A DNA stretch of 64,000 bases from Nanobdellota archaeon (GCA_038045385.1 JBBSYE010000002.1:65509-129508), one strand, 5' to 3'; positions 5,601 to 28,090 are shown, counted from the first letter of the stretch. Notes: generated by a model not told the origin, from the sequence alone. A program made the numbers and translations.

Positions 5601-5606
5601 TTTATC

Positions 5607-6611: not shown

Positions 6612-6629
6612 TTGTATCTTGCATTGTTT

Positions 6630-7202: not shown

Positions 7203-7216
7203 TTTCTTATTTGCTA

Positions 7217-7279
7217 TATTTCAGCTCACTCTTGTTCGTTCTACTTGAAGGCTCGGAGATTCGCTACGGCTCATTGAGA
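7217..7279 (-). repeat. Copy 2 of the ~65-nt conserved element, immediately 3' of tRNA-Ile
   Basis: Aligns with 86-151. Begins one nucleotide after the tRNA discriminator base. Confidence 0.6.
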
Positions 7280-7400: not shown

Positions 7401-7414
7401 GCTACACTAGAGGT

Positions 7415-7732: not shown

Positions 7733-7764
7733 ATAATTTGTTATTTTTTTGCTTTATAATATTA

Positions 7765-7772
7765 TTTATATA
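7765..7772 (+). promoter_or_regulatory. TATA box (TTTATATA)
   Basis: 21 nt upstream of the ATG at 7794. Confidence 0.55.
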
Positions 7773-7793
7773 ATGTATCTTTCTTTGGCTGTG

Positions 7794-8354: not shown

Positions 8355-8355
8355 T

Positions 8356-8363
8356 TTTATATA
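8356..8363 (+). promoter_or_regulatory. TATA box (TTTATATA)
   Basis: 21 nt upstream of the ATG at 8385. Confidence 0.55.
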
Positions 8364-8384
8364 TCTTAATAATTGGTTGGATGT

Positions 8385-9557: not shown

Positions 9558-9951
9558 TTTTTCTTCTCTTTAGCCCTTTGATTTTGTCAAAATCAGGGTC
9601 GTCTGAAACTATTTCGGAACAATTGTTAATCATTGCAGTTGCAGCGTGGATAGCATCTCTAGGGGCTATTCCGTATTCTTCAGTTATTGTTTGAGCTTTT
9701 TGTATAACTTGCAGGTCTGTTTTGAAAAAAGTAAGGTTTGGGGAGTTGATAAGAATTGCTCCGGAGGCAATTGCATTTTCTTTACCAATCACTTTTTTTA
9801 GAGCATATTGGAATTCATCCCAGGTTAAACAAGAAGTTCCTGCCTTTTCTTCTCCCTTGAATACTTTGTCTAATATTGCTCCGCAGGTAGCAGATTTTAC
9901 ATCAGTACCACTGATTGGATAAATAAATATATTAGTGTCAAGGTAAATCAT
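9550..9951 (-). CDS. vapC: PIN-domain toxin VapC
   Basis: MIYLDTNIFIY N-terminus. Conserved acidic residues include the C-terminal SDDPDF. Overlaps the upstream antitoxin gene. Confidence 0.8.
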   Translation of the reverse strand: MIYLDTNIFIYPISGTDVKSATCGAILDKVFKGEEKAGTSCLTWDEFQYALKKVIGKENAIASGAILINSPNLTFFKTDLQVIQKAQTITEEYGIAPRDAIHAATAMINNCSEIVSDDPDFDKIKGLKRRKIN

Positions 9952-15200: not shown

Positions 15201-18200
15201 CAACTGACGTTGCAATACAGGTGGTTACTCCAAGTAATGTTTTTGAGAACGTTAATGTTCATCAATCTTCAACAGCAGTTTCTCTTGCTACAGGAGCACA
15301 TAACACTAGTATTCTTGTAGGGAACTTCACAGATTCGTCTGTTAGTGGTTTTTCAATAGGTGTTGCCGCAAATGGAACTTTCTCAAATATTTATATGGCG
15401 AATCCATCTTTCATAGGCTCAAGAGGTATTTCTATTACAAGTAATGTAGCAAAGAATAATCAGTTCACTAATCTTACTATATTGAATTTCGCTTTGCAAT
15501 ACTTTAGAACTTCTCTTAATAGCGTTAACGGAACAGTTATTGATAATGCTTATATTCAGAATTATACTCTTACAGGCAATCCTGGAGCAATAACAACTTT
15601 TAGAAAACCATTATATGGCGAAGTTTATTTCTTCAGAGGAATAAATGGGACTGGGACAAATTTGAGCAATGATGTAAGGATAGGGAATAACTCAATTATA
15701 ATTAACTCCACTAAAACTGATCTAGGGACTAATAAGACTTCGAACATAACTTTCTATAATCTCCCTACAACTTTTACCTCTCCAGTTATACTTAGAGATG
15801 GAGTTACTTGTACTATTTGTTATAATTTTACTTCATTAAATGCTGGAACTGTTATATTTAATACAACTAGCGGAGGTAATTATACTATTTATGGCACTCT
15901 TCCTTCAGATACTATTTTACCTTTAGTCTCAATAACTTATCCGACTAATACAACTTATGCTTCAGCAATTACGGCGTTGAACTATTCTACTTCAGATACT
16001 AACTTGCAAGCTTGTTGGTACTCGCTTGATTTGGGCGTTACTAATAATACAATAACTTGCGGAACTAACGTGACTGGGCTAACTGCTACACAGGGAAGCA
16101 ATACTTGGAAAGTTTATGCAAATGATAGCAATGGAAATTTGAATACTTCTTCTGTGACTTTTGCTGTAACTCTTGATACAACTCCCCCTGATTTAATCAC
16201 GGTTTATCCGACTAACATTAGCTACACAAGTTTGGTTACAGCATTTAACTACAGTGTTGGAAGTGATGCTCAAGCTTGCTGGTATTCTCTTGATTTAGGC
16301 GTAACCAACGCAACAATAACTTGCGGAACTAATGTTACTAATTTGAATTCTGGGCAGGGCTCAAGCACTTGGAAAGTTTATGCAAATGATAGCAATAATA
16401 ATCTTAACAGTTCGAGCGTGACTTTTAGTGTTGATAGTATTATTCCTCTTGTTTCTATAGTTTATCCAACTAATACAACTTACACAAGCGTGACCGCTCT
16501 CAATTATAGCGTCTCAGATACTAACCTCCAAGCTTGTTGGTATTCCACTAATCTTGGCGTGACTAACACTACAATAATTTGCGGGACTAATGTTACTGGG
16601 CTTTCTTCAAGCGATGGAAGTAACACTTGGAAGGTATTTGCTAATGACTCTAGTGGGAATTTGAATAGTTCTAGCGTTACATTTAGCGTTGATTCGGGTT
16701 CGCCAAGTATAGACTTTGTTAGTCCGACTGAAACTAGCGGAATATTTTTGACAAGAGGAAATATTATGATTAATTTAACTGCTTCAGATAGTAGCTTAGC
16801 TAATATTACAATAGAGTTGTTTAATTCAACAAGTCTTGTGAATAGAACTACTACTCTCACAAGTCCAAATTATGTTAACATTTCTTCATTAACTAATGGA
16901 ACTTATTACTTTAATGCAACAGCTACAGATACTAGCAATAATGCAAATTCTACTTCTACTAGGATTGTTTATATTGATACGCAAAGTCCAGTTGTTAGCT
17001 TAATTGCTCCCGCGAATAATACTTTGGCCACCAGTGCTGGACATTCATTCAACGCTACATTTACAGATAACATTCAGCTAGCTAACGTGACATTCAATCT
17101 TTGGAATTCTTCGGGAGCCTTGGTTAATTCTACTTTCAGAGCTCTGAGTGGAACTAGCGGAAATGTTAATTTGAGCGTTACTTTGCCCGCACAGGGAAGA
17201 TTCTTTTGGAACTATCTTGCGGTTGATAATGCAAGCAATAAAGCATTTAATCATACTAACTTCACTATTTTATTTGATTCAGCAGTGCCTTTGATTACAG
17301 TTTCTTCCCCGACAAACACGACTTATTCTACTAATAGTATTTTAGTTTACTTTAACGCTTCTGATTCAAATGGAATTAGTTCTTATTGGTTTTATAATGG
17401 CAGTGCTAATGTAAGCTTTAGTTCTTCTAGTTCTGAAGCCAGACCGAGCGGAACTGTTGAGCTTAGAGCCCAGACTTGTGAGGCTTCCGATAGCGCGGCG
17501 ATAAATACTTATTCAGGAAGTTGTGATGGGAGTTATCCTTCAATTGATAATGCAGATAGACTTGCAGGAAGTAATGGAGTTTATGAAACTCAAACTTTCC
17601 AAATTGTAGGTGCCTCTATCAAATATGGTGGCGTTAGTATAAGTGTTTACAACAATTCAATAGCGAATTGCGGAGCAATTCAGAGAGTTAATCTTTGTAT
17701 GGAATGGTGGATGACTGGAGCCTTGGAGGATATGTCTGGCCCTGCTGTTGAAGTTGATGCGAATGGAGGTGCTAGTTTTACTGCTACTAGTCATGGTTCT
17801 CCAGGAGATACTGCTAATCCTGGAGTTGAGTGTATTGATGTTACTTCTCTTGAATCTTGGTCTTGTAATAGTTTCTTTGGTTCTAGCGGGACTAGAGCTC
17901 TGGCGAGGAATAAGATTTCTAGTTTTAACGAGATAGCTAGCGAAATTCATACTGACGCTTTGTTCTTCAATGTGACTTATTCTGCGGGAGTTAGCGCTAA
18001 TGCGGCAGAAGGGAGCAATAGCTGGATATTTTATGCGAATGATACAGTAAATAATTTTAATTCTAGTTCTGTGACATTCAGCGTTAATACTGATTCTAGT
18101 CCTCCAATTGTAACTATAAATTCACCGACTGGAAATCTCTCTGTATCACAAGTGACTTTTAATGTCACAACAAATGAGGCGAGTGATAGTGCTCTGTTCA

Positions 18201-21200
18201 GCTTGAATGGCGGGATAACAAATGTAACGATGCAGAAGAATGGGAATAGCGATTTTAATTATACTAATTCAAGTATTGCCGATGGGAATTATATTGTGAG
18301 GTTTTATGTTAATGATACCACAGGTAATGTCAATAGGACTGCTTCAAGAGCTTTTACAATTGATACGACAAAGCCGTTAGTTTCAATTGTTTATCCGACT
18401 AATACAACTTATGCAAGTGTGACTGCTTTGAATTATAGCGTCTCAGATACTAACCTCCAAGCTTGTTGGTATTCCACTAATCTTGGCGTGACTAACACTA
18501 CAATAATTTGCGGGACTAATGTTACTGGGCTTTCTTCAAGCGATGGAAGTAACACTTGGAAAGTTTATGCAAACGACACCACAAATAATTTGAATTCATC
18601 AAGTGTGACATTTAGCGTTGATTCTACTTATCCAACTTTCTCTAATTATCTTGAGAGTCCATCAAATAATTCTGCTTACTCTAGCGGGCAATTTTATGAG
18701 TTTAATGTGACTGTGACTGAAACGAATATTGGGACTGTGAGAATGGAATGGGACGGAACTAATTATTCCACTTATGGAAGTTATAGATTTAATAGGACGG
18801 ATTTGGGAGTTGGAACTTATAGTTATAGGTGGTGGGCGAATGATACTCAAGGCAATCTGAATAGTTCAGGATTGAGATATTATACTGTTGCTCAAGCAAC
18901 AGGAAATGTTACTCTTTACTTAAATCATAGTTTTGCTAATATTACAATAGCTCAAGGAACTTCAATTCGTCTTAATGCTACTTTAGTTGCTGGAACTGGA
19001 ACTATTTCTCTTTATAATAATGGGACTTTGATAAATTCTGGGTCGAGTCCGATTTCTAACTTGACAACCTTCACTAACATTGGAATTTATAATATTACTG
19101 CGATTTATTCTGGAAATAATAATTTTACTTCTGATTTTGAAACTCTGTATGTTAATGTGGTCGATGGTGTCGCGCCTGTCGTTACAATTAATCTTCCGAC
19201 TAATACTACCTATACAAATTCATCTTTGTTGTTTAATGTTAGCTTAAGCGAGAATGGTAGTGTTATTTATTCTTTGAATAATGGAATAACCAATTATACT
19301 CTGGCCGGAAATCAAGGATTATTTGGTACTAACTTTAATTCAAGCAATTCAAGTATTGCAGATGGAGCTTATACTTTTAGTGTTTATGCTAACGATACTT
19401 TCGGTAATAATAACAATACTATTCATGTTAATTTTAGCGTTGAGAATCTTAATCTTTTGGCTTGCGGAACCTTGGATAGAGCAAATACTGAATATACTCT
19501 GACACAAGGGATTACAACTAGTGGAACTTGCTTTAATATTGAAGCTGAAAATATAACCTTGAACGGCAGAGGTTATTCTATCTCTGGTGATGGCGGAGCT
19601 TCGGATTACGGAGTTTATTCAGAGAAATATAATACGAGTGTTAAGAATTTAGTTGTTAATAGTTTTGGAGCGGGAGGAGTCTATTATAATCATGCTCTTA
19701 ATTCTAGCGTTGATAATGTGAATTTTAGCTCTAATCTTTATGGGCTTAGGCTGATTGGAAGTAACGGAACGATAGTTTCTAATTTATTGTTAAACTCCAG
19801 TACACAATATGGTTTGATTATTACATTTTCTAGATTGGTTTCTGTTAGTCATGTGAATGTGTATGAACCGAGTGCCGTTGCGGGAATTTATCTTGGCGGA
19901 TCTCGTATTAACTTGATGGGAATAAATACAACTCTTGGTCAATCTGACAAAGTTATTTCAACGCAAACACTAATTAGTAATTTTGTTTTGAATGCCTCTA
20001 ATATATATGGGGCAGGGATATCGGATGATTTGAATCTTGGACTTGATAGCAATGGTACTTTGATTATAAACACGCCAATAAAGGAATATTCATTTGATGA
20101 TTCTGGTTCTGTATTGACGATATTGAATAGCACTTCAGGAGAGATTGCTTTCTTGTCTAGAGTAAATGGAAGCGGAGGTAATTTATATTCTGAAGTTTAT
20201 ACTCGATCGAATTTGGGTTTCATTAATGTTTCAAATTATGCTTTGAATAAATCAGCTAATATTACTCTCTATTCTATGCCTGCTAACTTTAGCGATCCTG
20301 TCGTTTTAAATAATGGGGCCCTTTGTAGTGTTTGTTATAACTTTACTTCTTTGAATGCTACTACGGTAATTTTCAATGTTTCATATGGGGGAAGCTATAG
20401 CGTTGGGGAAAGGCCTGATTCTATTGTTCCGAGTTTAGTCATTACGTATCCAACTAATACAACTTATACTAGTGTTATTACTGCTTTGAACTATTCTGCT
20501 TCAGATACTAATTTACAGGCTTGCTGGTATTCCACTAATCTTGGCGTGACTAACACTACAATAATTTGCGGGACTAACGTGACTGGACTGACTGCTAGCC
20601 AGGGAAGCAATACGTGGAAAGTTTATGCTAATGATAGCTTTGGACATTTAAACTCAAGTTCTATGACTTTCAACGTTGATAGTCTTGTTCCTTTGATTAG
20701 CTTTGGTCTTGGAACTGAAAATGATAGAGAATTCATGAGCAATTTGTCGCTTTATGTTAATATTTCCTTAACGGAGAGTAATCTTGCTAATGTGACTTTC
20801 TCTATTTATAATTCTTCAAGTGTTGTCAATAGAACTACATTTGATAGTGCTACCTATACATTCAACTTAACTAATGTTCCAGCTGGAATTTATACTTATG
20901 AGGCGAATGCGACTGATAGTTCAGGAAATGTTAATAGTACTGGCGTTTTGACTGCTAGACTTGTCAGTTCTTGTCTTGGACTTTGTTCAGAAGGGACAGG
21001 GTGTTCTATAACTGGAAATAGCTGTTACCTTTATTCTGATATTTGTACTGGTAACGTTTGCGATTTTACTAATTTGACTTTGCAGAATTCTACTATCTTT
21101 ACATTGTATAATGGTAGTGGAGATGGTAATTCTCTAGTGCTGAATATAACCTCAAATTCTTCTAGCTCAATTAGTTTCATTAAGGCAACTGGAGGATATA

Positions 21201-21703
21201 CTGGATTTGTATTTGGCGGGAAGAATGGGACTAATATTGGCTCTGGAAGTCGTGGAGGTCATGGGGGAGTTTTGAATATTACGACTTATGGGTTGTTTAA
21301 TAGAACGCAGGCTAACTTTACCGGTCGTGGCGGTTATGCTACTTCTGGAGTGGGCGGAAATGGTAGCGTTCTTCAGATTAATTATCATGGACTTATCGGC
21401 GGAGCTTATACGGCAGCTACTTGGAGTGGTCGTGTGAACGTGACTGGCGGAAAGTCTGCTGGAGGTACTGCAGGGAGTAACGGGCCGAATCCGATAATAG
21501 TTAAGGATAGTGTTTGCCCGTTGGATGCTGATATAAGTAATGATGGTTTAGTCTCTCAGATAGATTGGCAAACAATAGACGAAGTTTATAACAACTTAAC
21601 TGGAGATTCAACTTTCAGTTCAGCTTATGATATAAACTGCGATGGAAAACTGAATATTATTGATATTTCCAGAATCGGGTTTGTATACGAAAGGGGAAGC
21701 TAG
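12275..21703 (+). CDS. Giant membrane-anchored, sequon-rich surface protein (adhesin-like). Contains an acidic S/D/E tract, two PbH1-type beta-helix blocks, many Ig-like modules, a Gly-rich solenoid and a dockerin-like C-terminus.
   Basis: Single 9.4-kb ORF. The signal-anchor MKRPEWRFMLVVAGMVFAFLVLLLYL is at aa 55-80. The module ..PTNTTYTSVTALNYSVSDTNLQACWYS.NLGVTNTTIICGTNVTG...WKVYANDS..NLNSSSVTFSVD recurs at least 5 times. The true start is uncertain (TTG 12275, GTG 12302 or ATG 12437). Confidence 0.9.
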   Translation: MNVWSFESFVVLLQKVVHKKYTSRDGKKYGPYFYSTQRKGGKIITSYLGKDVVVMKRPEWRFMLVVAGMVFAFLVLLLYLSYGDLLTGRVSLDIDSSYVPGEVVGGYLHLNLKHGELIPADSLVIANLGEASGVYTLGQILGSSSSSGVFYLEDQNLLGDGLGYGVPGTARAYPNVSFILEVSSEEFKEVVTPEVEVEDENETIGDGNETSEDDVEDVAGNETLEDSEDSSDSADSGDSSEDSAEESSSDSEDNDSVSEDSEEDSADEPSSGESGDDESSDGSGEESSSDSGDSSDDESSEDSGDSDSSEGSSESSGDSSSDSGSGITGEAISEESFTVDGLVSRDSDFSYALESGQSARIVSGSVMVNGESVPDAALELDISSNLVVISTTYSIEVEGFGAEFLGDEIETFDIPLSGFGLVALTDSNLGVNIEYNGESLVSAERDISTVAPPETNITLENVTIEIVNESVGANISLVQQGARLGVPVKWTKTVSLDNPSEIIIELPADASNVGVVSFESSEEDSGATIRVDNEGEVSEEFSFDEETPEAIDNETSEEVGESSEGITEEDFTPERETTLTGNVISDPSISIVESALTTEVIVEQPVSEAVIEYETPAPYSIEREIENGKEILIVGHDTIHYLNVIAFSTIPEEWNIRSQAGLSVYWVESGIIVASSLADGDENGIYDYIEWIAPELSNQTFIIEITRATHLNNSREFISDIYDEVYQLDGNWSETIGDGEYVRVTFERNLTSVNDITIYPRIVSGEPSVEVYDYNGSEILASFNPLVENEYNKVYLLSLGNRTQDTFDLKILNGALEFDHIIDPSPSVTNISSCSFAIVNNNTDYQITNSFSYSGVDYCLNVSASNVTIFGNGYTLTGNPNSLGGIASIGSYNVTINNLILDAWDLGVYLENTNNSYLSNVTIKGAGSVGFILSSSSFNNISNLVIFNTSNAGGDAVDISAGSAYNRFFNINLTNTTDVAIQVVTPSNVFENVNVHQSSTAVSLATGAHNTSILVGNFTDSSVSGFSIGVAANGTFSNIYMANPSFIGSRGISITSNVAKNNQFTNLTILNFALQYFRTSLNSVNGTVIDNAYIQNYTLTGNPGAITTFRKPLYGEVYFFRGINGTGTNLSNDVRIGNNSIIINSTKTDLGTNKTSNITFYNLPTTFTSPVILRDGVTCTICYNFTSLNAGTVIFNTTSGGNYTIYGTLPSDTILPLVSITYPTNTTYASAITALNYSTSDTNLQACWYSLDLGVTNNTITCGTNVTGLTATQGSNTWKVYANDSNGNLNTSSVTFAVTLDTTPPDLITVYPTNISYTSLVTAFNYSVGSDAQACWYSLDLGVTNATITCGTNVTNLNSGQGSSTWKVYANDSNNNLNSSSVTFSVDSIIPLVSIVYPTNTTYTSVTALNYSVSDTNLQACWYSTNLGVTNTTIICGTNVTGLSSSDGSNTWKVFANDSSGNLNSSSVTFSVDSGSPSIDFVSPTETSGIFLTRGNIMINLTASDSSLANITIELFNSTSLVNRTTTLTSPNYVNISSLTNGTYYFNATATDTSNNANSTSTRIVYIDTQSPVVSLIAPANNTLATSAGHSFNATFTDNIQLANVTFNLWNSSGALVNSTFRALSGTSGNVNLSVTLPAQGRFFWNYLAVDNASNKAFNHTNFTILFDSAVPLITVSSPTNTTYSTNSILVYFNASDSNGISSYWFYNGSANVSFSSSSSEARPSGTVELRAQTCEASDSAAINTYSGSCDGSYPSIDNADRLAGSNGVYETQTFQIVGASIKYGGVSISVYNNSIANCGAIQRVNLCMEWWMTGALEDMSGPAVEVDANGGASFTATSHGSPGDTANPGVECIDVTSLESWSCNSFFGSSGTRALARNKISSFNEIASEIHTDALFFNVTYSAGVSANAAEGSNSWIFYANDTVNNFNSSSVTFSVNTDSSPPIVTINSPTGNLSVSQVTFNVTTNEASDSALFSLNGGITNVTMQKNGNSDFNYTNSSIADGNYIVRFYVNDTTGNVNRTASRAFTIDTTKPLVSIVYPTNTTYASVTALNYSVSDTNLQACWYSTNLGVTNTTIICGTNVTGLSSSDGSNTWKVYANDTTNNLNSSSVTFSVDSTYPTFSNYLESPSNNSAYSSGQFYEFNVTVTETNIGTVRMEWDGTNYSTYGSYRFNRTDLGVGTYSYRWWANDTQGNLNSSGLRYYTVAQATGNVTLYLNHSFANITIAQGTSIRLNATLVAGTGTISLYNNGTLINSGSSPISNLTTFTNIGIYNITAIYSGNNNFTSDFETLYVNVVDGVAPVVTINLPTNTTYTNSSLLFNVSLSENGSVIYSLNNGITNYTLAGNQGLFGTNFNSSNSSIADGAYTFSVYANDTFGNNNNTIHVNFSVENLNLLACGTLDRANTEYTLTQGITTSGTCFNIEAENITLNGRGYSISGDGGASDYGVYSEKYNTSVKNLVVNSFGAGGVYYNHALNSSVDNVNFSSNLYGLRLIGSNGTIVSNLLLNSSTQYGLIITFSRLVSVSHVNVYEPSAVAGIYLGGSRINLMGINTTLGQSDKVISTQTLISNFVLNASNIYGAGISDDLNLGLDSNGTLIINTPIKEYSFDDSGSVLTILNSTSGEIAFLSRVNGSGGNLYSEVYTRSNLGFINVSNYALNKSANITLYSMPANFSDPVVLNNGALCSVCYNFTSLNATTVIFNVSYGGSYSVGERPDSIVPSLVITYPTNTTYTSVITALNYSASDTNLQACWYSTNLGVTNTTIICGTNVTGLTASQGSNTWKVYANDSFGHLNSSSMTFNVDSLVPLISFGLGTENDREFMSNLSLYVNISLTESNLANVTFSIYNSSSVVNRTTFDSATYTFNLTNVPAGIYTYEANATDSSGNVNSTGVLTARLVSSCLGLCSEGTGCSITGNSCYLYSDICTGNVCDFTNLTLQNSTIFTLYNGSGDGNSLVLNITSNSSSSISFIKATGGYTGFVFGGKNGTNIGSGSRGGHGGVLNITTYGLFNRTQANFTGRGGYATSGVGGNGSVLQINYHGLIGGAYTAATWSGRVNVTGGKSAGGTAGSNGPNPIIVKDSVCPLDADISNDGLVSQIDWQTIDEVYNNLTGDSTFSSAYDINCDGKLNIIDISRIGFVYERGS
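12855..13250 (+). repeat. Low-complexity acidic Ser/Asp/Glu-rich tract within the giant ORF
   Basis: EDSEDSSDSADSGDSSEDSAEESSSDSEDNDS... for about 130 aa. It generates spurious alternative-frame ORFs. Confidence 0.9.
14770..15420 (+). other. Right-handed parallel beta-helix (PbH1/NosD-like) block 1 of the giant protein
   Basis: Periodic NVTIFGNGYTLTG / YNVTINNLILDAWDLGVYLENTNNSYLSNVTIKG / FNNISNLVIFN repeats. Confidence 0.6.
16502..16632 (+). repeat. 131-bp segment identical to 18431-18561 (intragenic direct repeat)
   Basis: Base-by-base comparison of the two stretches. A third copy shares about 52 identical bp at 20526-20577. Confidence 0.9.
18431..18561 (+). repeat. 131-bp segment identical to 16502-16632
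   Basis: See the partner repeat. Confidence 0.9.
19460..19930 (+). other. Beta-helix (PbH1-like) block 2 of the giant protein
   Basis: NITLNGRGYSISG / YNTSVKNLVVNSFGAGGVYY / NSSVDNVNFSSNLYGLRLIGSNGTIVSNLLLN. As with block 1, a CxxCYNFTSLNA segment follows. Confidence 0.6.
21524..21700 (+). other. Dockerin-like C-terminal module (two EF-hand-like Ca-binding loops)
   Basis: DADISNDGLVSQIDWQTI ... YDINCDGKLNIIDISRI is a duplicated DxNxDGxxxxxD pattern about 35 aa apart. Confidence 0.6.
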
Positions 21704-21733
21704 TTTTCTATCTAGTTAGTAGTAACAGAAACA

Positions 21734-21741
21734 TTTAAATA
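21734..21741 (+). promoter_or_regulatory. TATA box (TTTAAATA)
   Basis: 21 nt upstream of the ATG at 21763 (Met4 of the track ORF). Confidence 0.55.
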
Positions 21742-21762
21742 TTCCAATTATCTATGGCAGAT

Positions 21763-22401
21763 ATGAAAAATATCTTTAGTTTAGGTTTTGTTTTCGCTTT
21801 TTTAGCTGTTGCTTTATTGTCAGTCTCTTTTGTTAGTGCTGGTGCTATTGAAACTCCAATAATTACTAAAACAACTCCTGAGATTACTTCTTGGATTGCT
21901 GATGGTCAGACATGGTACAGAGTTGATGTTCGTGCTGATGCAAGTATGTATAATTACCAAGTTAGCGGTTTTGATTGGAGAGTAAATTTCCCTTCATATT
22001 TACAACTTGTAAATTCGCAATGGCCATCTAGTGGTTTCTTTTATCAGGGTTTGCAATTGAATGCTATTTCGAACCCGGATAGAACGGTTACAAGCACCTC
22101 TGTACAGGGGAATGTTGGATTGGCTACGCCTTCGCAGGCCCCAATTGGTCAGAATGCAATAGTTGCTAGTTATTATTTTGTTGCTTCACCTTCAGCTCCA
22201 GTTGGACAAAACTCTTTTGATATACCCTTTGTTTCTATAGTTATAAGAGATGCTTCTCATGAAGTGTGCGGAGTTACAATATGTAGCGGTTTGCCTGGCG
22301 AAATAATCAACGACCCATTCATGATATTCCGAATGCCTGGAAATGGTCATGTTTCAAAGTTAACTTCTGTTAGAAATAGTTTTGCTCAGGCTTTTGAGTA
22401 A
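21763..22401 (+). CDS. Secreted protein with cohesin-like beta-sandwich pattern
   Basis: Signal peptide MKNIFSLGFVFAFLAVALLSVSFVSAG. YQVSGFDWRVNFPSYLQLVN and GQNAIVASYYFVASPSAPVGQNSFDIPFVSIVIRD resemble cohesin strand patterns (by eye). Confidence 0.45.
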   Translation: MKNIFSLGFVFAFLAVALLSVSFVSAGAIETPIITKTTPEITSWIADGQTWYRVDVRADASMYNYQVSGFDWRVNFPSYLQLVNSQWPSSGFFYQGLQLNAISNPDRTVTSTSVQGNVGLATPSQAPIGQNAIVASYYFVASPSAPVGQNSFDIPFVSIVIRDASHEVCGVTICSGLPGEIINDPFMIFRMPGNGHVSKLTSVRNSFAQAFE

Positions 22402-22453
22402 TTAGATTAGTTTACAAAGATAGTTTTTTAAACAAAAGGTCTTTGTTATTGTT

Positions 22454-22798
22454 ATGAACTATTTTTATTTTTTAGCGGGAGTTATTATTGCTGTTGCTCT
22501 TGTTTTTGGAATAGGAAATTATTATGCTGAAAAGGTATTGCTAAGTCCTGAAGAGAGTCTTGAGTTTTCTGGAGATTTGGAATTGAATGCGGTGACGTGT
22601 AGCTCTGCTGCTAATCCTTCTTATGAGAATCCTGATTTGCGTTCGAGATGTCTGAGATGTTCATTTGCGGCCTCTTCTGCTTGCACTCTTGCTTGTCTTG
22701 CTCAAGATGATTACTCTTATGATACTTGTTATAATGGCTTTTTTGGTGTAAATGGATGTCATGGGCGTTTGTTTAAGAGATGTATGAGTAATAGTTGA
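22454..22798 (+). CDS. Small N-terminally anchored Cys-rich extracellular protein
   Basis: 114 aa, one TM and 10 Cys in the last 70 aa. Confidence 0.55.
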   Translation: MNYFYFLAGVIIAVALVFGIGNYYAEKVLLSPEESLEFSGDLELNAVTCSSAANPSYENPDLRSRCLRCSFAASSACTLACLAQDDYSYDTCYNGFFGVNGCHGRLFKRCMSNS

Positions 22799-22820
22799 TA
22801 ATATTCAACTCTCGAGTTTG

Positions 22821-23081
22821 TTATTTTTTATTGTTGTATAGTGCGTTTCTTGATTCTATAAAAAATTCTCTTTGTTCTTCTGGAGATAGTTTTCCATCGT
22901 GGTTTTTATCATAACTCTTTAACATTTCTATACCAATTGTTTCTTTTTTATCTGGAGTGAAATCTTCAGTAAATTCCGGAATCGGGCCGTCTTTTTCAAG
23001 ATATTTGTCATATTCGCTTGTGTTTAAGCATCCTGCTAACACTAAAGGTGTTGCTATGAGTAAATTTCTTAGGTTTTTCAT
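22821..23081 (-). CDS. Small lipoprotein with one EF-hand
   Basis: Lipobox LVLAGC; DKNHDGKLSPEE calcium-binding loop. Confidence 0.6.
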   Translation of the reverse strand: MKNLRNLLIATPLVLAGCLNTSEYDKYLEKDGPIPEFTEDFTPDKKETIGIEMLKSYDKNHDGKLSPEEQREFFIESRNALYNNKK

Positions 23082-23181
23082 ATTTTTTTGAACTTTGGAG
23101 AGTATTTAATGGTTTGGACTATGCGGAGATTTATCGTATAAACGTTTATAAATAATCCTTGCTCTATTTTGTCGTTGAGAG

Positions 23182-24426
23182 ATGATGAGGAAATTTATTT
23201 TTAGTGCGCTTGCTTTTGGAATTTTTAGTTTATTATTCTTACCTGGAGTTTTTGCTATTGGCGCGAGTTTAAGCGATAGTGGAACTTTTGCAGAGACTTC
23301 TGTTTCTTCTGCGAGTAATCTTTATGCTTATGAAATTAATTTTGATTATTCTGGGAGTTATAGCTCGCCGACTTTTGCTGGTTTTTTAGGTTCCGGAACT
23401 AGTACTGGTTCAAGTGCAAGAAGCGGAATATTAAGTGTTTATGAGTCTAAGTTGGATAGCACACAAGCAGGCGTTTCAGGCTCGGGGTTGCTATTTAATA
23501 TGACTCATAGCGGAGATTTAGAATTGAGATATGCTTTGTTTGTTTATGCAAACGGAAATGAAGAATATGTTTATTACAATAATACTGGAGGAAGTAGCGG
23601 AAGTACGACTACCACAAGTGGCAGCGGTTCCAGCTCTACTAATGATGAAGTTATTGCGCCAAACACACTTGATGTTGAGCAGATTAGTTTGACTGCAGAT
23701 ACTGAAGAATTAAGTATAAACTCTATTGTTGGGCAAGAGAATGTGCGTTCTTTTAGAGTTCTTTTTGAAGGAGGCGAGGCGATAACATTGGAGATTAGTA
23801 CCGAAGGACTTGAAGATTATATTACAATTCCAAGCGTAATGACTTTTCAGCCAGGTCAAGAGAGACTTGTTGCGTTTGAGATAGCTCCTGTTTTTAATGG
23901 ATTGCTGACTGGAAAAATAATCTTTAGTTATAATGGTGAGTCTGTGCTTGAGGTGCCAGTTGTTTTAAATGTAAGAAGCGAGAATTTCCTTTTTGATACG
24001 ACCATCGCTTTATCTGATTTTGATAGGCAAGTGACTGCAGGTCAGAGGTTGATTGCACAGGTTGACTTGAAAGAGGTTAGCCAGGGCGATAAAGTTGATA
24101 TTATTGCAACTTATTACGTAAAAGATTATTCTGGAAATGTTTATTTTGAGGATAGCGAGACTTTTTTTGTCTTGGGAGAAAAGAGTTATACTAAGGAAAT
24201 AATTACTGATAATCTTCCTCCTGGGAAATATATCTTTGGTCTTGAAATAGTTTATCCTGGAGCTTTTGCAACTTCAAGTGCTTATTTTGAAGTTAAAGAA
24301 CCATTTAGTTTTATTAATAATCCCACTGCAGTAATTGTTCTTATTGTTGCAATTGGAGCGATTGCAGTATTAGTAGTACTATACTTTAGCATTTTGAGGA
24401 CTCCTAAGAGATATAGGCGAAGGTAG
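23182..24426 (+). CDS. Surface protein: signal peptide, cohesin-like N-domain, Ser/Gly/Thr linker, two beta-sandwich domains, C-terminal TM
   Basis: LYAYEINFDYSGS...GSGLLFNMTHSGDLELRYALFV (cohesin-like). VPVVLNVRSENFLFD... domain is paralogous to 24467-25642. TM plus RTPKRYRRR tail. Confidence 0.55.
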   Translation: MMRKFIFSALAFGIFSLLFLPGVFAIGASLSDSGTFAETSVSSASNLYAYEINFDYSGSYSSPTFAGFLGSGTSTGSSARSGILSVYESKLDSTQAGVSGSGLLFNMTHSGDLELRYALFVYANGNEEYVYYNNTGGSSGSTTTTSGSGSSSTNDEVIAPNTLDVEQISLTADTEELSINSIVGQENVRSFRVLFEGGEAITLEISTEGLEDYITIPSVMTFQPGQERLVAFEIAPVFNGLLTGKIIFSYNGESVLEVPVVLNVRSENFLFDTTIALSDFDRQVTAGQRLIAQVDLKEVSQGDKVDIIATYYVKDYSGNVYFEDSETFFVLGEKSYTKEIITDNLPPGKYIFGLEIVYPGAFATSSAYFEVKEPFSFINNPTAVIVLIVAIGAIAVLVVLYFSILRTPKRYRRR

Positions 24427-24437: not shown

Positions 24438-24445
24438 TTTAAATG
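24438..24445 (+). promoter_or_regulatory. TATA box (TTTAAATG)
   Basis: 21 nt upstream of the ATG at 24467 (Met9 of the track ORF). Confidence 0.5.
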
Positions 24446-24466
24446 TCTCTTTTCACTCTTAGCTTG

Positions 24467-25642
24467 ATGAAAAGGTTGATGCTGTTTTTGTTGTTGCCTT
24501 TATTTTTTTCTTTTGCAGGAGCAATAGATAGTTTTGCAGTAAATAGCGTTATAGTTAAAATCTCATTACATCAGGGAGAAAAGGTTGTGAAGACTCTTTC
24601 AGTTACTGCAATTGAACAGGGTTCTTTTGAAGTCGGAGTTAATGAGTTAAAAGGAATAGTTCTTTCTGGAGAGAGTTTTACGCTTTCTAGTGGTGAAAAG
24701 AAAGATATTATCATCAGCGCCGATAGTGCTACTTTGGAATCTGGAGTTTACGTTGGGAATATTGTTGTTAAAAACGCTAAGGAAGAGATTGAAATACCCG
24801 TTGTTTTAGAAATTGAATCTGAAGATGTTTTTTTTGATTTGAATCTTGATATTCCTCCGCAGTATAATGAGATATCTCCTGGCGGGAAATTCATTGCCCA
24901 AGTAAAAGTTTTTGACTTGACGGGCTTTAAGGTCGCTGGGTCTTTAGGGCCTAGTCCGGTTACTTTGAATTACGAGCTTAGGGGTGTGGATGGTAGTGTT
25001 ATTTCCGTGGCCAGTGATAATGTCGTTGTAGATAAACAGACGCAAATTACAAAGACTTTTACAATTCCTTCAACTTTGAGGGAAGGAGATTATTTTTTTA
25101 CTGCAACTGCAAGGCATAAGACTTCTTTCGGAAGTGCAAGCTATTTCTTTTCTGTGCGTTCGCAACTCATAAAATCAGGTTCAATATTTACTCCGGAATT
25201 TATTGCCTTGCTTGTTGTTTTCGGATTTTTCTTTTTACTTATTTTAGCGCTTATAGTATATCTTGTCAGAGATAGGAATAAGTTATTTGCGGAGCTTTAT
25301 AGGCATAATAATTCTGAATTCAGAAGCCAAGAGTCTTTTCTTAGAGAACAGGCTCATGTTTTGGAAAAGAAAGGACTTGAAAAGAAAAAAATAGAGAAAG
25401 AAGTTAATTTTAGACTTGATAAACTAAAACAAAGTCAAGAAAAGCGTGTTTTGACTATGAAGAAACTTGGAGATAAGGGAAATGTTAAAGAAATGCAACG
25501 CAAATTATCTTTGTGGAAGAAACAAGGATATTCGACAACGGGATTGGAACATAAGATGCCTGGCCTTTCTGAAAGGGAAATGAAAGAAGTAATGAAATCT
25601 TGGAAGAAAAAATATAAAACCGAAGACTATAAAAATCGTTAA
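24467..25642 (+). CDS. Single-pass membrane protein: extracellular paralogous beta-sandwich domains, TM, ~140-aa K/E-rich cytoplasmic coiled-coil tail
   Basis: Signal peptide. IPVVLEIESEDVFFDLNLDIPP.. domain. TM FIALLVVFGFFFLLILALIVYLV. Charged tail. Confidence 0.6.
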   Translation: MKRLMLFLLLPLFFSFAGAIDSFAVNSVIVKISLHQGEKVVKTLSVTAIEQGSFEVGVNELKGIVLSGESFTLSSGEKKDIIISADSATLESGVYVGNIVVKNAKEEIEIPVVLEIESEDVFFDLNLDIPPQYNEISPGGKFIAQVKVFDLTGFKVAGSLGPSPVTLNYELRGVDGSVISVASDNVVVDKQTQITKTFTIPSTLREGDYFFTATARHKTSFGSASYFFSVRSQLIKSGSIFTPEFIALLVVFGFFFLLILALIVYLVRDRNKLFAELYRHNNSEFRSQESFLREQAHVLEKKGLEKKKIEKEVNFRLDKLKQSQEKRVLTMKKLGDKGNVKEMQRKLSLWKKQGYSTTGLEHKMPGLSEREMKEVMKSWKKKYKTEDYKNR

Positions 25643-25657
25643 TTCTTATAATGACTA

Positions 25658-28090
25658 ATGAGTGAAAAGAGTGTGAAGGTTGAGTTTGAAGCTTTAGCTT
25701 CAAAGATTTCTCGTCTTGAGGCTTTAAGAGATGAGCTTGATGCTTTGAATACAGAGGGCTTTGAATCTGAAGCAAGACTTATTAGAGCGAGATTGAAAGA
25801 TGTCAACGCCCTTGGGGAAATTGAAAGAGAGATGAATGAACTTAGAAGGAAGATAAAATCTTCTGAATCTAAGAAAGTTGAAGTTAAAGTGCATAAGGAT
25901 CAGGCTCTAAAAGAGTCTGGGGTTTTGAAGAGAAAAATTTCTGAACTTGAGAAATTGATAGTCAAGAAGAAAGTTCTTTCCAATAAACATTCTTTAAATA
26001 AAGAGCAGATGAATTTTGTTAAGGATATTCCTCAATTAGAAAAAGAACTTAATTCTTTGAAGGGTGCTTTTCATTCGCATTTGGAATCTGCTAAGGTCAA
26101 GATTGATTCTGGCGTTGGAGTGGTTGTTGATACAAAGTTTGATGATTTTATCGCTCAATTGAAGGCAGATCTTACGCAGAGAGTTAAGGAGAAAGAGATG
26201 TCTGTTGAGCAGACTTTGAAGCATGATTTGGCCTTACATGAGCAAGTTTTCTCGGATAGGTATAAACAACTTGTTGATGAATTTCATGAGAAGTATAAAG
26301 AGAAAGTTGAACATGAACTTAAAAAAGAAGTTGCGGGCAAGCTTGATGAAGAGGTTAAGAGACATTTAGCTATTGAAAGGCAAAAACTTTTGATGGCTCT
26401 TGCAAAAGAAAATATGGCTCGCTTGGAGACGGAAAGAGTAAAACTCACTCAAAGACTGGAGAGTGTTTATGGTGTTAAAAATAAGCAACTACAAGATAGA
26501 TTGAATGTAGTAAATGCTAAAGAAAGGAGAGTTAAAGGAGAGATGGAGAGATCTGCTAAGGAAATTGCAAAAGCTAAAGCTGAATTTGAAAAGATAAAGA
26601 GTGAACATGATAAAGAACTTGAGGGAAAGAAGAATTTGCTTAATTCTCAGCTTTCTTCTGTTGAATTGAGAGAAAGGAACGATAAGGCTAGATTGTCTGA
26701 AAGAATGAAGTCTTTGTCTGAAAAGATGCGGGTTTTGGGGAAAGAAAGAGATAATTTGCATTTAACTTTGGCTGGTTTGAATGAGATAAAAGAGAAAAAG
26801 AGCGAGGAATTTGATAAAGCTCATGAAAATATTGAAGCTATGAGAAAAAGACAGATTGAAAGGATTCGTAAATCTCAAGAGCATCTTCGTAAAATTCAGG
26901 AGATGCAGGATAAGGCTCTAAAGGGCAAAAGATCTTCTGAACTTGAGAAATTGCGTAAACTTCAGGAAAAGGCGCATAAGATGCAAGAAAAACAGCATAA
27001 GAAATTTGAGAGTAAAAGGCTAAGTCAGTTGGATAAGTTGAACAAGGCTGAAGAAGAATTGAGGAAGCTGAAAGAGAGACAGATTGTGCTTTTCGCAGAG
27101 AAGGAGAAAGCAGTTGAGTTTGCTAAAAAGCGCGAACTTGACGAATTTCATAAATCTTTAGAGGCTGAAAAGAATAGGGAAATTAGTATTAGAGAGCGCG
27201 GACTTGATGAATTTCATAAGTCTCTTGATGAAGAGAAGAGTAGAGAGATTAGTATAAGGGAGAGGGGGCTTGACGAATTTCATAAATCTCTTGAGGCTAA
27301 GAAGAGTAGAGAAATTGCTAAATTGAAAAAATCAAGAGATAAGCTGAAGATTCTAAGGGAAAAGGCGCAACGCGAATTTGAAATGATGAAGAAGAAGGAG
27401 AGTGATAAGTTACGTAGATTGCAGGAGAATTTGAGAAAGATGAAAGAAGCACAGACTAAAGAGTTGTCTGAGAAGTTTGCAGGTATTGAATCGAGAAAGA
27501 GAGAGGAATACGAGAAGAAACATAAAGAGCTGATATTGGGGATTCATGCTACACATAATGGTCAATTGAAAGTTGTTTCTGGTAAAATGGCTGAATTGAA
27601 GAAGAAATTTGATTCACTTAAGAGAGATGAGCATGTTCGTTTGGAAGAGTATGCCAAACATTCTAATGATTTGATGAAAAAATTTGAAGTTATGAAAGCA
27701 AAACAGAGAATGGGTATTTTGCGCAAGGAAAAGGTAATACACGAAAGACTTGCTAAAGCGAAGAAGGCTGAGCAAGGGCAGTTCGAGGCGCTAATGAAAG
27801 AGCGTAGAATGATTCATGATAAGTTGCAAAATGTTCAAAGATTTAAACAGGCTGAAAGCTTTAGACTTGCTAGTGAGGCCAAGGCGAAAGAATCAGCGCT
27901 GAAAACTAGACTTGAGAAAAGAATTGCTGGAATTGTAAAGGAAAGAGAGAATGGCTTAAGGAGAAGACTTGAACAGGAGTATTCAAGGAGATTGCATACA
28001 GAGCTTCAGAGAAGGACTGCTGAATTTGAGAAGAGAAAGACTGAACTTGAGGAGCATATAATTAATCAGGCAAAAAGATTCTTTAAGTAA
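25658..28090 (+). CDS. 810-aa K/E/R-rich coiled-coil protein (no NTPase motif seen)
   Basis: Heptad-like charged sequence throughout. No Walker A. Internal 22-aa tandem repeat. Confidence 0.7.
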   Translation: MSEKSVKVEFEALASKISRLEALRDELDALNTEGFESEARLIRARLKDVNALGEIEREMNELRRKIKSSESKKVEVKVHKDQALKESGVLKRKISELEKLIVKKKVLSNKHSLNKEQMNFVKDIPQLEKELNSLKGAFHSHLESAKVKIDSGVGVVVDTKFDDFIAQLKADLTQRVKEKEMSVEQTLKHDLALHEQVFSDRYKQLVDEFHEKYKEKVEHELKKEVAGKLDEEVKRHLAIERQKLLMALAKENMARLETERVKLTQRLESVYGVKNKQLQDRLNVVNAKERRVKGEMERSAKEIAKAKAEFEKIKSEHDKELEGKKNLLNSQLSSVELRERNDKARLSERMKSLSEKMRVLGKERDNLHLTLAGLNEIKEKKSEEFDKAHENIEAMRKRQIERIRKSQEHLRKIQEMQDKALKGKRSSELEKLRKLQEKAHKMQEKQHKKFESKRLSQLDKLNKAEEELRKLKERQIVLFAEKEKAVEFAKKRELDEFHKSLEAEKNREISIRERGLDEFHKSLDEEKSREISIRERGLDEFHKSLEAKKSREIAKLKKSRDKLKILREKAQREFEMMKKKESDKLRRLQENLRKMKEAQTKELSEKFAGIESRKREEYEKKHKELILGIHATHNGQLKVVSGKMAELKKKFDSLKRDEHVRLEEYAKHSNDLMKKFEVMKAKQRMGILRKEKVIHERLAKAKKAEQGQFEALMKERRMIHDKLQNVQRFKQAESFRLASEAKAKESALKTRLEKRIAGIVKERENGLRRRLEQEYSRRLHTELQRRTAEFEKRKTELEEHIINQAKRFFK
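27131..27322 (+). repeat. Three tandem 66-bp (22-aa) repeats inside the coiled-coil gene
   Basis: RE(R)GLDEFHKSLEAEKSREISI occurs three times; repeat units start at 27191 and 27257. Confidence 0.8.

What the first reader, a model, noticed from the sequence alone, without database searches (positions are those of the whole stretch)
21524..24426. Dockerin-like tail of the giant adhesin followed immediately by secreted cohesin-like proteins
The last ~60 aa of the 3,142-aa protein carry a duplicated Ca-loop pattern (DISNDGLVSQID ... DINCDGKLNIID), typical of type I dockerins.

The next gene (21763-22401) encodes a signal-peptide protein. Its strand pattern (YQVSGFDWRVNFPSYLQLV ... GQNAIVASYYFVASPSAPVGQNSFDIPFVSIV) looks cohesin-like.

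The membrane-anchored protein at 23182-24426 starts with a similar module (LYAYEINFDYSGS ... GSGLLFNMTHSGDLELRYALFV).

This suggests a self-contained cohesin-dockerin docking set that tethers or multimerises the giant adhesin on the cell surface. It would be a cellulosome-style assembly principle reused for attachment.
Basis: partly seen in the sequence, partly recalled or inferred. Interest (0 to 1): 0.65.

Follow-up and report, generated by a model that had tools for sequence, protein, structure and literature searches.

The report
Archaeal giant protein's dockerin–cohesin docking set
A giant surface protein of a tiny DPANN archaeon ends in a true dockerin, and genes for two unannotated cohesin-shaped modules follow it, so the snap-together parts known from bacterial cellulosomes probably tether this protein to the cell.

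Summary

- **Dockerin:** the last ~60 aa of the 3,142-aa protein match Pfam Dockerin_1 (28.6 bits, cut-off 22.9). Similar tails occur on 26 related giant proteins.
- **P2 (21754-22401):** it has no Cohesin profile hit. Its AlphaFold model (pLDDT 91) matches only cohesins in the top 44 PDB hits.
- **P4 N-module (gene 23182-24426):** this smaller β-sandwich (pLDDT 94) has cohesins as its ten best matches, but the margin over other folds is narrow.
- **P2 versus P4 N-module:** the two modules are not detectably related in sequence.
- **Gene neighbourhood:** in all 17 related loci with a dockerin tail and about 5 kb or more of downstream sequence (window included), at least one of the two modules follows.
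- **Fused forms:** in 11 loci P4's anchor (two Ig-like domains plus a membrane helix, Ig-Ig-TM) has no cohesin-like module. In 9 it sits at the C-terminus of a protein homologous to the giant. None of the 11 has a dockerin or either module. The dockerin and cohesin-like pair therefore sits where other lineages have a peptide bond.

Binding itself, and which module is the partner, remain inferred. This is not a cellulosome, because no glycoside hydrolase is involved. I rate it a new variant of a known kind: non-cellulosomal cohesin-dockerin in Woesearchaeota/Pacearchaeota-type archaea.

The parts
12275..21703 (+). Giant surface protein, 3,142 aa. It has Ig-like repeats and β-helix-like regions, 166 N-x-S/T sequons and no glycoside hydrolase domain.
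   Evidence: ORF. Pfam Big_13, Big_3_3 and Dockerin_1. Homologous to giants in L004, L008, L012, L015, L016, L018 and others. Sequon count.
12302..12529 (+). Conserved N-terminal cytoplasmic motif (KKYGPYFY...R..GK...YLGK) followed by a membrane helix. This is the giant's first membrane anchor.
   Evidence: Conserved in both split and fused giants. No family hit.
21101..21700 (+). C-terminal ~200-aa tail module: Gly-rich repeats (GGxGG...NIT) followed by the dockerin. It is found only in giants that lack a fused anchor.
   Evidence: Alignment A5. Loci found with it. Absent from the fused loci.
21530..21673 (+). Dockerin, aa 3086-3133. Ca loop 1 is at 21530-21565 and Ca loop 2 at 21629-21664, each followed by a helix. 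The second repeat (YDINCDxxxNVxDLxRIGF) is the more conserved.
   Evidence: Pfam Dockerin_1, 28.6 bits. PDB dockerin 5k39_B. Motif scan. Alignment of 27 tails.
21754..22401 (+). P2, a secreted single-module cohesin-fold protein. Signal peptide aa 1-29, cohesin-like β-sandwich aa ~35-193 (21856-22332), C-terminal helix aa 197-213 (22342-22392).
   Evidence: AlphaFold2 pLDDT 91.2. Foldseek top 44 hits all cohesins. 52 proteins matched at E<=0.001, the query's own entry included. 51-row family alignment A2, window P2 included. Immediately follows the dockerin gene in most related loci.
22454..22798 (+). 114-aa protein with an N-terminal membrane helix and a Cys-rich domain. It is present only in the closest relatives and its role is unknown.
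   Evidence: ORF. 80% identical homologues in L001 and L003. Absent from L004.
22821..23081 (-). 86-aa lipobox protein with a single EF-hand Ca-binding loop. Whether it belongs to the system is uncertain.
   Evidence: Pfam EF-hand_1, E=3e-4, below the cut-off. 80% identical homologue in L001.
23182..24426 (+). P4, a membrane-anchored receptor candidate. Signal peptide; minimal cohesin-like module aa 26-135 (23257-23586); Gly/Ser/Thr linker; two Ig-like (ASH/PapD-type) domains aa ~166-375 (23677-24306); membrane helix aa 382-405 (24325-24396); basic tail.
   Evidence: 74 homologues. Alignment A1 and AlphaFold2 pLDDT 93.7. Ten best Foldseek hits are cohesins. Ig-like Pfam hits in relatives. The same anchor is fused to giants in other lineages.
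24443..25642 (+). P5, a paralogue of P4's Ig-Ig-TM part. It has no cohesin-like module and carries a ~130-aa K/E-rich cytoplasmic tail. It always follows P4 or the fused anchor.
   Evidence: P4 vs P5 BLASTP E=7e-9. Conserved in the genome loci that reach that far.
25658..28090 (+). 810-aa cytoplasmic coiled-coil protein, conserved downstream of P5 in both split and fused loci.
   Evidence: ORF. Homologues in L001, L004, L006, L009, L012, L014-L017, L024 and L025.

Best explanation
This is a non-cellulosomal cohesin-dockerin docking set on the surface of a DPANN archaeon of the Woesearchaeota/Pacearchaeota type.

**Proposed mechanism.**
1. The giant glycoprotein is inserted in the membrane by an N-terminal helix and extends outward.
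2. Its far, C-terminal end carries a two-loop, Ca-binding dockerin.
3. That dockerin is captured by a cohesin-fold module encoded directly downstream.
4. One candidate partner is P4, which presents a minimal cohesin-like module on a flexible Gly/Ser linker above two Ig-like domains and a membrane helix. Docking to P4 would pin the giant's C-terminal end to the cell. That reproduces non-covalently the arrangement seen in sister lineages, where the same giant is translated as one chain with this Ig-Ig-TM anchor.
5. The other candidate is P2, a free secreted canonical-size cohesin-fold protein. It is the most constant neighbour of the dockerin and would bind the same dockerin as an adaptor, cap or cross-linker.

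**Shown.**
- The tail is a dockerin.
- P2 has a cohesin fold.
- P4's N-module is a cohesin-like β-sandwich.
- The dockerin tail and at least one of the two cohesin-like modules occur together, and all three are absent together from the fused loci.
- The covalently fused alternative exists.

**Inferred.**
- Physical binding and its dependence on Ca.
- Which cohesin-like module is the partner.
- That the giant acts in attachment to a host cell.
For: **Dockerin.**
- Dockerin_1 above the cut-off on the isolated tail.
- Above the cut-off on 5 of 6 orthologous tails (24.2-33.1 bits).
- The best PDB sequence hit is a dockerin.
- The two-loop architecture is conserved in 27 tails.

**P2.**
- The model has pLDDT 91.2.
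- The top 44 Foldseek PDB hits are all cohesins, E down to 8.5e-8. They include the Archaeoglobus fulgidus cohesin 2xdh at target-normalised TM-score 0.72.
- The family profile's only two PDB sequence hits are a Clostridium acetobutylicum cohesin, E=0.036.
- 11 of the 51 sequences in the family alignment carry their own Dockerin_1.

**P4 N-module.**
- The model has pLDDT 93.7.
- The ten best hits are cohesins, with query-normalised TM-score up to 0.66.
- Cohesin ties with PepSY for the most members matched (2 of 48 each) and has the best E-value, 0.0013.

**Gene neighbourhood** (17 non-redundant dockerin-tail loci with about 5 kb or more of downstream sequence, window included).
- 8 have both modules, 5 have the P2 type only and 4 have the P4 type only. 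None has neither.

**Fusion/fission.**
- In 11 loci (L013-L023) the Ig-Ig-TM anchor has no cohesin-like module.
- In 9 of them it sits at the C-terminus of a protein homologous to the window giant. In L015, L018 and L019 this protein also keeps the giant's N-terminal motif.
- None of the 11 loci has a dockerin or either cohesin-like module.

**Other.**
- In relatives the P2-type protein carries a PEP-CTERM-like anchor or its own dockerin, as anchoring and adaptor scaffoldins do.
- The P4-type module also sits at the N-terminus of other proteins: one with a membrane helix and two with a hydrophobic C-terminal tail.
Against: - Neither P2 nor P4 matches the Pfam Cohesin profile.
- hhalign of both families against a cohesin alignment found nothing. 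That alignment was very shallow (Neff 1.8), so the test has little power.
- For the P4 N-module, the cohesin hits (E 5e-4 to 2e-3) are barely separated from YcnI and CBM2 β-sandwiches. The module has only about 7 strands against 9 in cohesins.
- No interface prediction or binding data exist.
- There are two candidate receptors for one dockerin, and five dockerin loci have no P4-type module within 5-7 kb.
- P2 itself has no anchor, so its role is unclear.
- Co-occurrence and fusion patterns show a functional link, not direct contact.
Confidence: 0.65

Rival explanations
1. Only P2 is the dockerin's partner. P4's N-module is an unrelated small β-sandwich, for example a glycan- or host-binding tip. 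P4/P5/coiled-coil is a separate surface cassette that merely sits next to the giant gene.
For: P2-type genes directly follow the dockerin gene in about 20 of 28 metagenomic loci, including five loci with no P4-type module within 5-7 kb. P2's cohesin assignment is far stronger than P4's. The two modules are unrelated in sequence.
Against: Four loci with a dockerin tail have a P4-type module but no P2-type gene (L008/L033-35, L012, L047, L048). The P4 anchor is fused in one chain to homologous giants exactly where the dockerin and the module are missing. The P4-type module is found only in loci of the dockerin type.
Confidence: 0.2
2. The dockerin-like tail is not a cohesin ligand. It is a Ca-binding EF-hand pair that stabilises the giant's end or binds a host or glycan target. 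The cohesin-fold proteins have independent roles.
For: Many non-cellulosomal dockerins have no known cohesin partner (own knowledge of the field; Peer et al. 2009 is cited for non-cellulosomal dockerins in PMC10066038). No binding evidence exists here. The Cohesin profile is negative.
Against: Presence and absence are strictly linked: all 17 dockerin loci have a cohesin-like neighbour and none of the 11 fused loci has a dockerin or either cohesin-like module. P2 relatives often carry dockerins themselves, as expected for components of a cohesin-dockerin network.
Confidence: 0.12
3. The docking acts between cells. The dockerin at the distal end of the N-terminally anchored giant engages cohesin-like modules on neighbouring cells of the same kind, or secreted P2 coats a host cell, giving cell-cell adhesion rather than attachment to the cell's own surface.
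For: The giant has its own N-terminal membrane helix, so it does not need the dockerin to stay on the cell. P2 is secreted without an anchor.
Against: The fused forms have both ends in the same membrane, which argues for attachment in cis. In relatives the P2-type proteins carry the cell's own anchors.
Confidence: 0.08

Closest known systems
Anchoring and adaptor scaffoldins of bacterial cellulosomes (e.g. Acetivibrio thermocellus SdbA/OlpB; Acetivibrio cellulolyticus ScaA/ScaB)
   Same: A C-terminal dockerin on a large extracellular protein sits next to genes for cohesin-fold modules. One module is on a cell-anchored protein behind a flexible linker. In relatives there are cohesin+dockerin 'adaptor' proteins.
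   Different: There are no glycoside hydrolases or CBMs. The anchor is a membrane helix or a PEP-CTERM-like signal, not SLH or sortase. The cargo is one giant Ig-repeat glycoprotein that also has an N-terminal membrane helix. The cohesin-like modules fall below the Pfam Cohesin threshold. The host is a DPANN archaeon.
Non-cellulosomal cohesin and dockerin modules of archaea (Archaeoglobus fulgidus cohesin, PDB 2xdh; survey by Peer et al. 2009)
   Same: Archaeal and not linked to cellulose. 2xdh is among the best structural matches for both P2 (target-normalised TM-score 0.72) and the P4 N-module.
   Different: The A. fulgidus modules are recognisable by sequence profiles (own knowledge). The modules here are two new, mutually unrelated sequence families, tied to a specific conserved gene cluster and to a fusion/fission partner.
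Autonomous single-cohesin proteins (Ruminococcus flavefaciens ScaG/CohG, PDB 4n2o and 4wkz)
   Same: P2 is a small secreted protein made of essentially one cohesin-fold module. 4n2o and 4wkz are among its structural matches.
   Different: CohG matches are lower-ranked (TM-scores 0.40-0.46). P2 has a C-terminal helix of unknown role and no sequence similarity to them.
Giant ORFs with non-cellulosomal dockerins in ultra-small symbionts (Omnitrophota, PMC10066038)
   Same: A giant surface protein with dockerin domains in a reduced-genome organism, proposed to act in adhesion.
   Different: That case is bacterial, has nine internal dockerins, and no cohesin partner or anchor was identified. Here there is one terminal dockerin with candidate receptors encoded next to it.

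Membership tests
Dockerin (Pfam PF00404, Dockerin_1) | Profile match above the curated cut-off | tested here: met
   Isolated tail: 28.6 bits against a cut-off of 22.9, E=1.7e-6. Within the full protein: 22.4 bits, marginally below. Above the cut-off in 5 of 6 orthologous tails.
Dockerin (Pfam PF00404, Dockerin_1) | Two tandem 12-residue EF-hand-like Ca loops (D-x-[NDS]-x-[DN]-G...D), each followed by a helix, about 33 residues apart | tested here: met
   DISNDGLVSQID (aa 3086) and DINCDGKLNIID (aa 3119). Conserved in 27 tails. The helices were not modelled.
Dockerin (Pfam PF00404, Dockerin_1) | Ca-dependent binding to a cohesin | not testable with these tools
   Needs biochemistry or multimer prediction. 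Only single-chain prediction was available.
Cohesin (Pfam PF00963): P2 | Profile match to Cohesin | tested here: not met
   No hit at E<=1 for P2. 2 of 51 sequences in the family alignment hit weakly, best E=0.026. The family profile's only PDB hits are a cohesin at a non-significant E=0.036. hhalign against a shallow CipA cohesin alignment was negative.
Cohesin (Pfam PF00963): P2 | Cohesin β-sandwich (jelly-roll) fold of about 140-170 aa | tested here: met
   AlphaFold2 pLDDT 91.2. Top 44 Foldseek PDB hits all cohesins, E 8.5e-8 to 3e-5, target-normalised TM-score up to 0.72. This is a predicted structure, not a solved one.
Cohesin (Pfam PF00963): P4 N-module | Profile match to Cohesin | tested here: not met
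   No hit for P4. 2 of 48 family members hit weakly, best E=0.0013. The family profile has no cohesin hit in the PDB.
Cohesin (Pfam PF00963): P4 N-module | Cohesin β-sandwich fold | tested here: inconclusive
   pLDDT 93.7. The ten best hits are cohesins (E 5e-4 to 2e-3, query-normalised TM-score 0.50-0.66), but YcnI and CBM2 follow closely. The module is about 110 aa with about 7 strands.
Cohesin-dockerin system (any) | Cohesin and dockerin modules encoded together in the same organism or locus | tested here: met
   All 17 dockerin-tail loci with enough downstream sequence have at least one of the two modules. None of the 11 fused-anchor loci has a dockerin or either module.
Cellulosome | Dockerin-borne carbohydrate-active enzymes assembled on a CBM-bearing scaffoldin | tested here: not met
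   The giant protein has only Ig-like and dockerin hits, with no GH or CBM. The neighbours have none either. It should not be filed as a cellulosome.

The most novel reading that the evidence does not exclude
DPANN archaea of the Woesearchaeota/Pacearchaeota type build a modular attachment organelle. A giant glycoprotein is held in the membrane at its N-terminus and is clipped at its C-terminus, through a dockerin, to one or both of two previously unrecognised cohesin-like families. One is a widespread P2-type family that is also found with dockerins or PEP-CTERM anchors elsewhere. The other is a minimal, ~110-aa cohesin-like module seen so far only in DPANN archaea. The receiving Ig-Ig-TM protein pairs with a paralogue whose cytoplasmic tail, together with a conserved 600-800-aa coiled-coil protein, would couple the surface fibre to an intracellular scaffold. 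The split and fused forms would then show a covalent link being exchanged in evolution for a reversible, Ca-gated one.
Probability: 0.35. Interest if true: 0.75.

Novelty: new variant of a known kind. Interest (0 to 1): 0.6.

Why it matters
**Biology of DPANN archaea.**
- DPANN archaea are thought to live attached to host cells, yet the parts of their attachment machinery are almost all unannotated 'hypothetical' giant proteins.
- This locus offers a concrete, testable parts list: a dockerin, two candidate receptors and a conserved transmembrane and coiled-coil cassette.
- It also offers a natural experiment, the fused and split forms, that predicts who binds whom.

**Reach of the cohesin-dockerin principle.**
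- It extends to two sequence families that the Pfam Cohesin model misses.
- The P2-type search gave 52 proteins at E<=0.001, the window's own entry included, against a library clustered at 50% identity. Some of these carry bacterial-type PEP-CTERM or dockerin tails, so non-cellulosomal cohesins may be undercounted.
- The ~110-aa module, if it binds, would be the smallest cohesin-like dockerin receptor and of interest for protein engineering.

**Prior literature.** I found no paper in the held library that links dockerins to these archaeal groups.

Tried and rejected
1. **Direct Cohesin profile hits.** There were none for P2 or P4 in Pfam or NCBIfam, and sequence searches of the PDB with the single proteins found nothing relevant.
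2. **P2 and the P4 N-module as homologues.** Rejected at the sequence level: hhalign probability 0.5% and negative cross HMM searches.
3. **hhalign of both families against real cohesins.**
   - I used the last homologue search to collect CipA-type cohesins, but it returned only 10 near-identical sequences.
   - The resulting profile had Neff 1.8 and detected nothing, including for P2, whose fold match is strong. The test is uninformative rather than negative.
4. **A Cys pair as a marker for P2-type partners.**
   - The pair is CP before loop 1 and NC in loop 2, and in the first seven tails it seemed to track presence of a P2-type neighbour.
   - Rejected after the metagenome loci: L036, L040, L043, L050 and L052 lack the Cys pair but have P2-type neighbours.
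5. **More dockerins or cohesin-like modules in the window.** None were found.
6. **The search for related loci with the 55-sequence P4 alignment.** It failed because no stretch was conserved enough. It worked with a 10-sequence alignment.
7. **Multimer prediction.** Not available.
Full report
**1. What is in the sequence**

The window has about 36% G+C. Homologues of its genes come from MAGs labelled Woesearchaeota, Pacearchaeota or Nanoarchaeota, so it is a DPANN archaeon. The finding covers the end of a 3,142-aa ORF (12275-21703, +) and the genes after it:

| Gene | Coordinates | Size | Features |
|---|---|---|---|
| P2 | 21754-22401 (+) | 215 aa | signal peptide |
| (unnamed) | 22454-22798 (+) | 114 aa | membrane helix, Cys-rich |
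| (unnamed) | 22821-23081 (−) | 86 aa | lipobox, one EF-hand |
| P4 | 23182-24426 (+) | 414 aa | see section 3 |
| P5 | 24443-25642 (+) | 399 aa | see section 5 |
| (unnamed) | 25658-28090 (+) | 810 aa | coiled coil |

**2. The dockerin is real**

- The two quoted Ca loops lie at 21530-21565 and 21629-21664. They are the only matches to a strict Ca-loop pattern in six frames of the window.
- The isolated tail matches Pfam Dockerin_1 at 28.6 bits (cut-off 22.9, E=1.7e-6). Inside the whole protein the score is 22.4 bits.
- Its best PDB sequence match is a solved dockerin, 5k39_B.
- Five of six tails from related giants also pass the Pfam cut-off.
- An alignment of 27 such tails conserves both loops. 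The second repeat (YDINCDxxxNVxDLxRIGF) is the more conserved.

**3. The two downstream modules**

*Sequence level.*
- Neither P2 nor P4 hits the Pfam Cohesin model.
- An exhaustive phmmer search with P2 gave 52 proteins at E<=0.001, the window's own entry included.
- I aligned 51 sequences (window P2 included) as A2. Eleven of the 51 carry their own Dockerin_1 domain, four a PEP-CTERM signal, and two a weak Cohesin hit.
- The A2 profile's only hits in the whole PDB are the C. acetobutylicum cohesin CaCohA2, at a non-significant E=0.036.

*P2 structure.*
- With alignment A2, AlphaFold2 gave a confident model (pLDDT 91.2).
- Its top 44 Foldseek matches in the PDB are all cohesins of types I, II and III. 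They include the archaeal A. fulgidus cohesin. E-values go down to 8.5e-8 and target-normalised TM-scores reach 0.72.
- P2 is therefore a cohesin-fold protein that the sequence model misses.

*P4 family.* P4 belongs to a family of 74 DPANN proteins, built as follows:
- a signal peptide;
- a ~110-aa N-module with the motif NLYAYEVNFDYxG...FLG...VYESKLDxTQTGVSGSGxLFNVTH;
- a Gly/Ser linker;
- two Ig-like domains, with sub-threshold to marginal ASH, Cep192 and HYDIN-type Pfam hits in relatives;
- a membrane helix and a basic tail.

*P4 N-module structure.*
- The model of the N-module (alignment A1, pLDDT 93.7) has cohesins as its ten best matches (E 5e-4 to 2e-3, query-normalised TM-score up to 0.66).
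- YcnI and CBM2 sandwiches follow closely.
- Cohesin ties with PepSY for the most members matched (2 of 48 each) and has the best E-value, 0.0013.
- I call it a minimal cohesin-like module, with less certainty than for P2.
- P2 and the P4 N-module are unrelated in sequence.

**4. Evidence from related loci**

*Closest relatives.* The order giant-with-dockerin, P2-type, P4, P5, coiled coil is kept in L001, L004 and L024, with P4 identity down to about 42%. L006 keeps it with an extra 176-aa ORF between P2 and P4. L011 is a fragment that begins in P2 and ends in P5.

*Metagenome scan.* A scan with the ~200-aa tail module returned 28 more loci.
- In about 20 of them a P2-type gene lies directly after the dockerin gene, or convergent to it.
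- I counted non-redundant loci with a dockerin tail and about 5 kb or more of downstream sequence, window included:

| Modules downstream | Loci |
|---|---|
| both P2-type and P4-type | 8 |
| P2-type only | 5 |
| P4-type only | 4 |
| neither | 0 |

*Fused loci.* Eleven genome loci (L013-L023) have the Ig-Ig-TM anchor without the cohesin-like N-module.
- In nine of them the anchor is joined through a Gly/Ser linker to the C-terminus of a protein homologous to the window giant, up to 3,036 aa long. In L017 and L020 the anchor protein showed no detectable similarity to the giant.
- In L015, L018 and L019 a fused protein also keeps the giant's conserved N-terminal motif and membrane helix.
- None of the 11 loci has a dockerin tail, a P2-type gene or a P4-type module.

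This is a classic fusion/fission (Rosetta-stone) pattern. The dockerin and the cohesin-like module occupy the place of a peptide bond between the giant and its anchor.

*Variants among relatives.*
- Some P2-type neighbours end in PEP-CTERM-like signals (VPEP, membrane helix, RRR) and some in their own dockerin. For example, L050 reads giant-dockerin, then cohesin-like plus dockerin, then P4. These mirror anchoring and adaptor scaffoldins.
- The P4-type module also heads other proteins: one with a membrane helix and two with a hydrophobic C-terminal tail.

**5. Mechanism**

*Most likely picture.*
- The giant glycoprotein has 166 N-x-S/T sequons and is held by an N-terminal membrane helix.
- Its C-terminal dockerin docks, probably with Ca, onto a cohesin-fold receptor.
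- The fusion pattern points to P4. Adjacency and fold quality point to P2. Both may bind, and the two dockerin repeats are not symmetric.

*Conserved downstream genes.*
- P5 is a paralogue of P4's anchor (E=7e-9) with a K/E-rich cytoplasmic tail.
- The coiled-coil protein is conserved in both split and fused loci. This hints at a link to the cell interior, which is speculation.

*Status of the claims.* Binding, partner choice and a role in host attachment are inferences.

**6. Comparison and novelty**

- Non-cellulosomal cohesins and dockerins in archaea are known: A. fulgidus 2xdh, and Peer et al. 2009, which is cited in PMC10066038.
- A giant dockerin-bearing ORF in Omnitrophota has been proposed as an adhesin.
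- I found no paper in the held library that connects dockerins with Woesearchaeota, Pacearchaeota, Nanoarchaeota or DPANN in this sense.
- The system is not a cellulosome, because it has no GH or CBM.
- I rate it a new variant of a known kind. It has two unrecognised cohesin-like families, a new cargo, and a fusion/fission relationship that makes the pairing testable.

**7. Limits**

- The structures are predictions made from my own alignments.
- The P4 module's assignment is not decisive.
- The cohesin hhalign test was underpowered.
- Locus counts include metagenome fragments, and I removed redundancy by eye.
- No multimer prediction could be run.

Noticed in passing
window 12302-12529 (giant protein aa ~10-85): The giant starts with a conserved ~45-aa cytoplasmic motif (HKKY..R.GKKYGPYxY...R..GK..T.YxGK) followed by a membrane helix. 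The motif is shared by split and fused giants in other DPANN loci and has no Pfam or NCBIfam match.
   Followed up: partly
window 24443-28090; also L001, L004, L006, L009, L012, L014-L017, L024, L025: P5 (Ig-Ig-TM with a K/E-rich cytoplasmic tail) and a 600-800-aa pure coiled-coil protein always follow the anchor gene, whether or not the giant is fused to it. This looks like a conserved transmembrane and cytoplasmic cassette of unknown function.
   Followed up: partly
window 22821-23081 (-): An 86-aa lipobox (LAGC) protein with a single EF-hand loop (DKNHDGKLSPEE; Pfam E=3e-4, below the cut-off) sits on the opposite strand between the cohesin-like genes. It is 80% identical in L001. A small Ca-binding protein next to a Ca-dependent docking module may not be a coincidence.
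   Followed up: partly
window 22454-22798 (+): A 114-aa protein with an N-terminal membrane helix and a Cys-rich ectodomain. It is conserved at 80% identity in L001 and L003 but absent from L004. No family match.
   Followed up: partly
L012 6243-6905; L040 1017-1829; L042 6334-7215; L051 3183-4184; L052 746-1417: Small secreted proteins next to dockerin-tailed giants in DPANN contigs end in PEP-CTERM-like sorting signals ([IV]PEP, a hydrophobic helix, then an Arg-rich tail). This suggests an exosortase/archaeosortase-type anchoring route in these archaea. Only one was scanned against Pfam, and its PEP-CTERM hit was weak (E=0.051).
   Followed up: no
P2-family proteins P0085, P0086, P0088, P0100, P0104, P0110, P0116, P0121; L006 3040-3681; L028 9520-10197; L049 4119-4736: Many P2-type cohesin-fold proteins end in a terminal C-x(3-10)-C motif at the very C-terminus (e.g. 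KCSWPNC, CRSSWSQAAAC). The window's P2 has a predicted helix there instead. The meaning is unknown.
   Followed up: no
L001 1985-2481; L008 ~4900-9900; L009 and L010 upstream of the P4 homologue: Toxin-antitoxin genes (a ParE toxin, PIN-like genes) and other small mobile-looking genes are inserted between the P2-type or giant gene and the P4-type gene in several relatives. This junction appears to be an insertion hotspot.
   Followed up: no
L045/L046 (contig Ga0210050_1000148): Two tandem copies of a [dockerin tail, then P2-type cohesin-fold gene] pair lie about 7 kb apart on one 94-kb contig, with no P4-type module in the stretch read.
   Followed up: no
window 12850-13260 (giant aa ~190-330): A long acidic Ser/Asp/Glu/Gly low-complexity stretch lies just outside the N-terminal membrane helix. 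The whole protein is 10.6% Asn with 166 N-x-S/T sequons, which suggests heavy N-glycosylation.
   Followed up: partly
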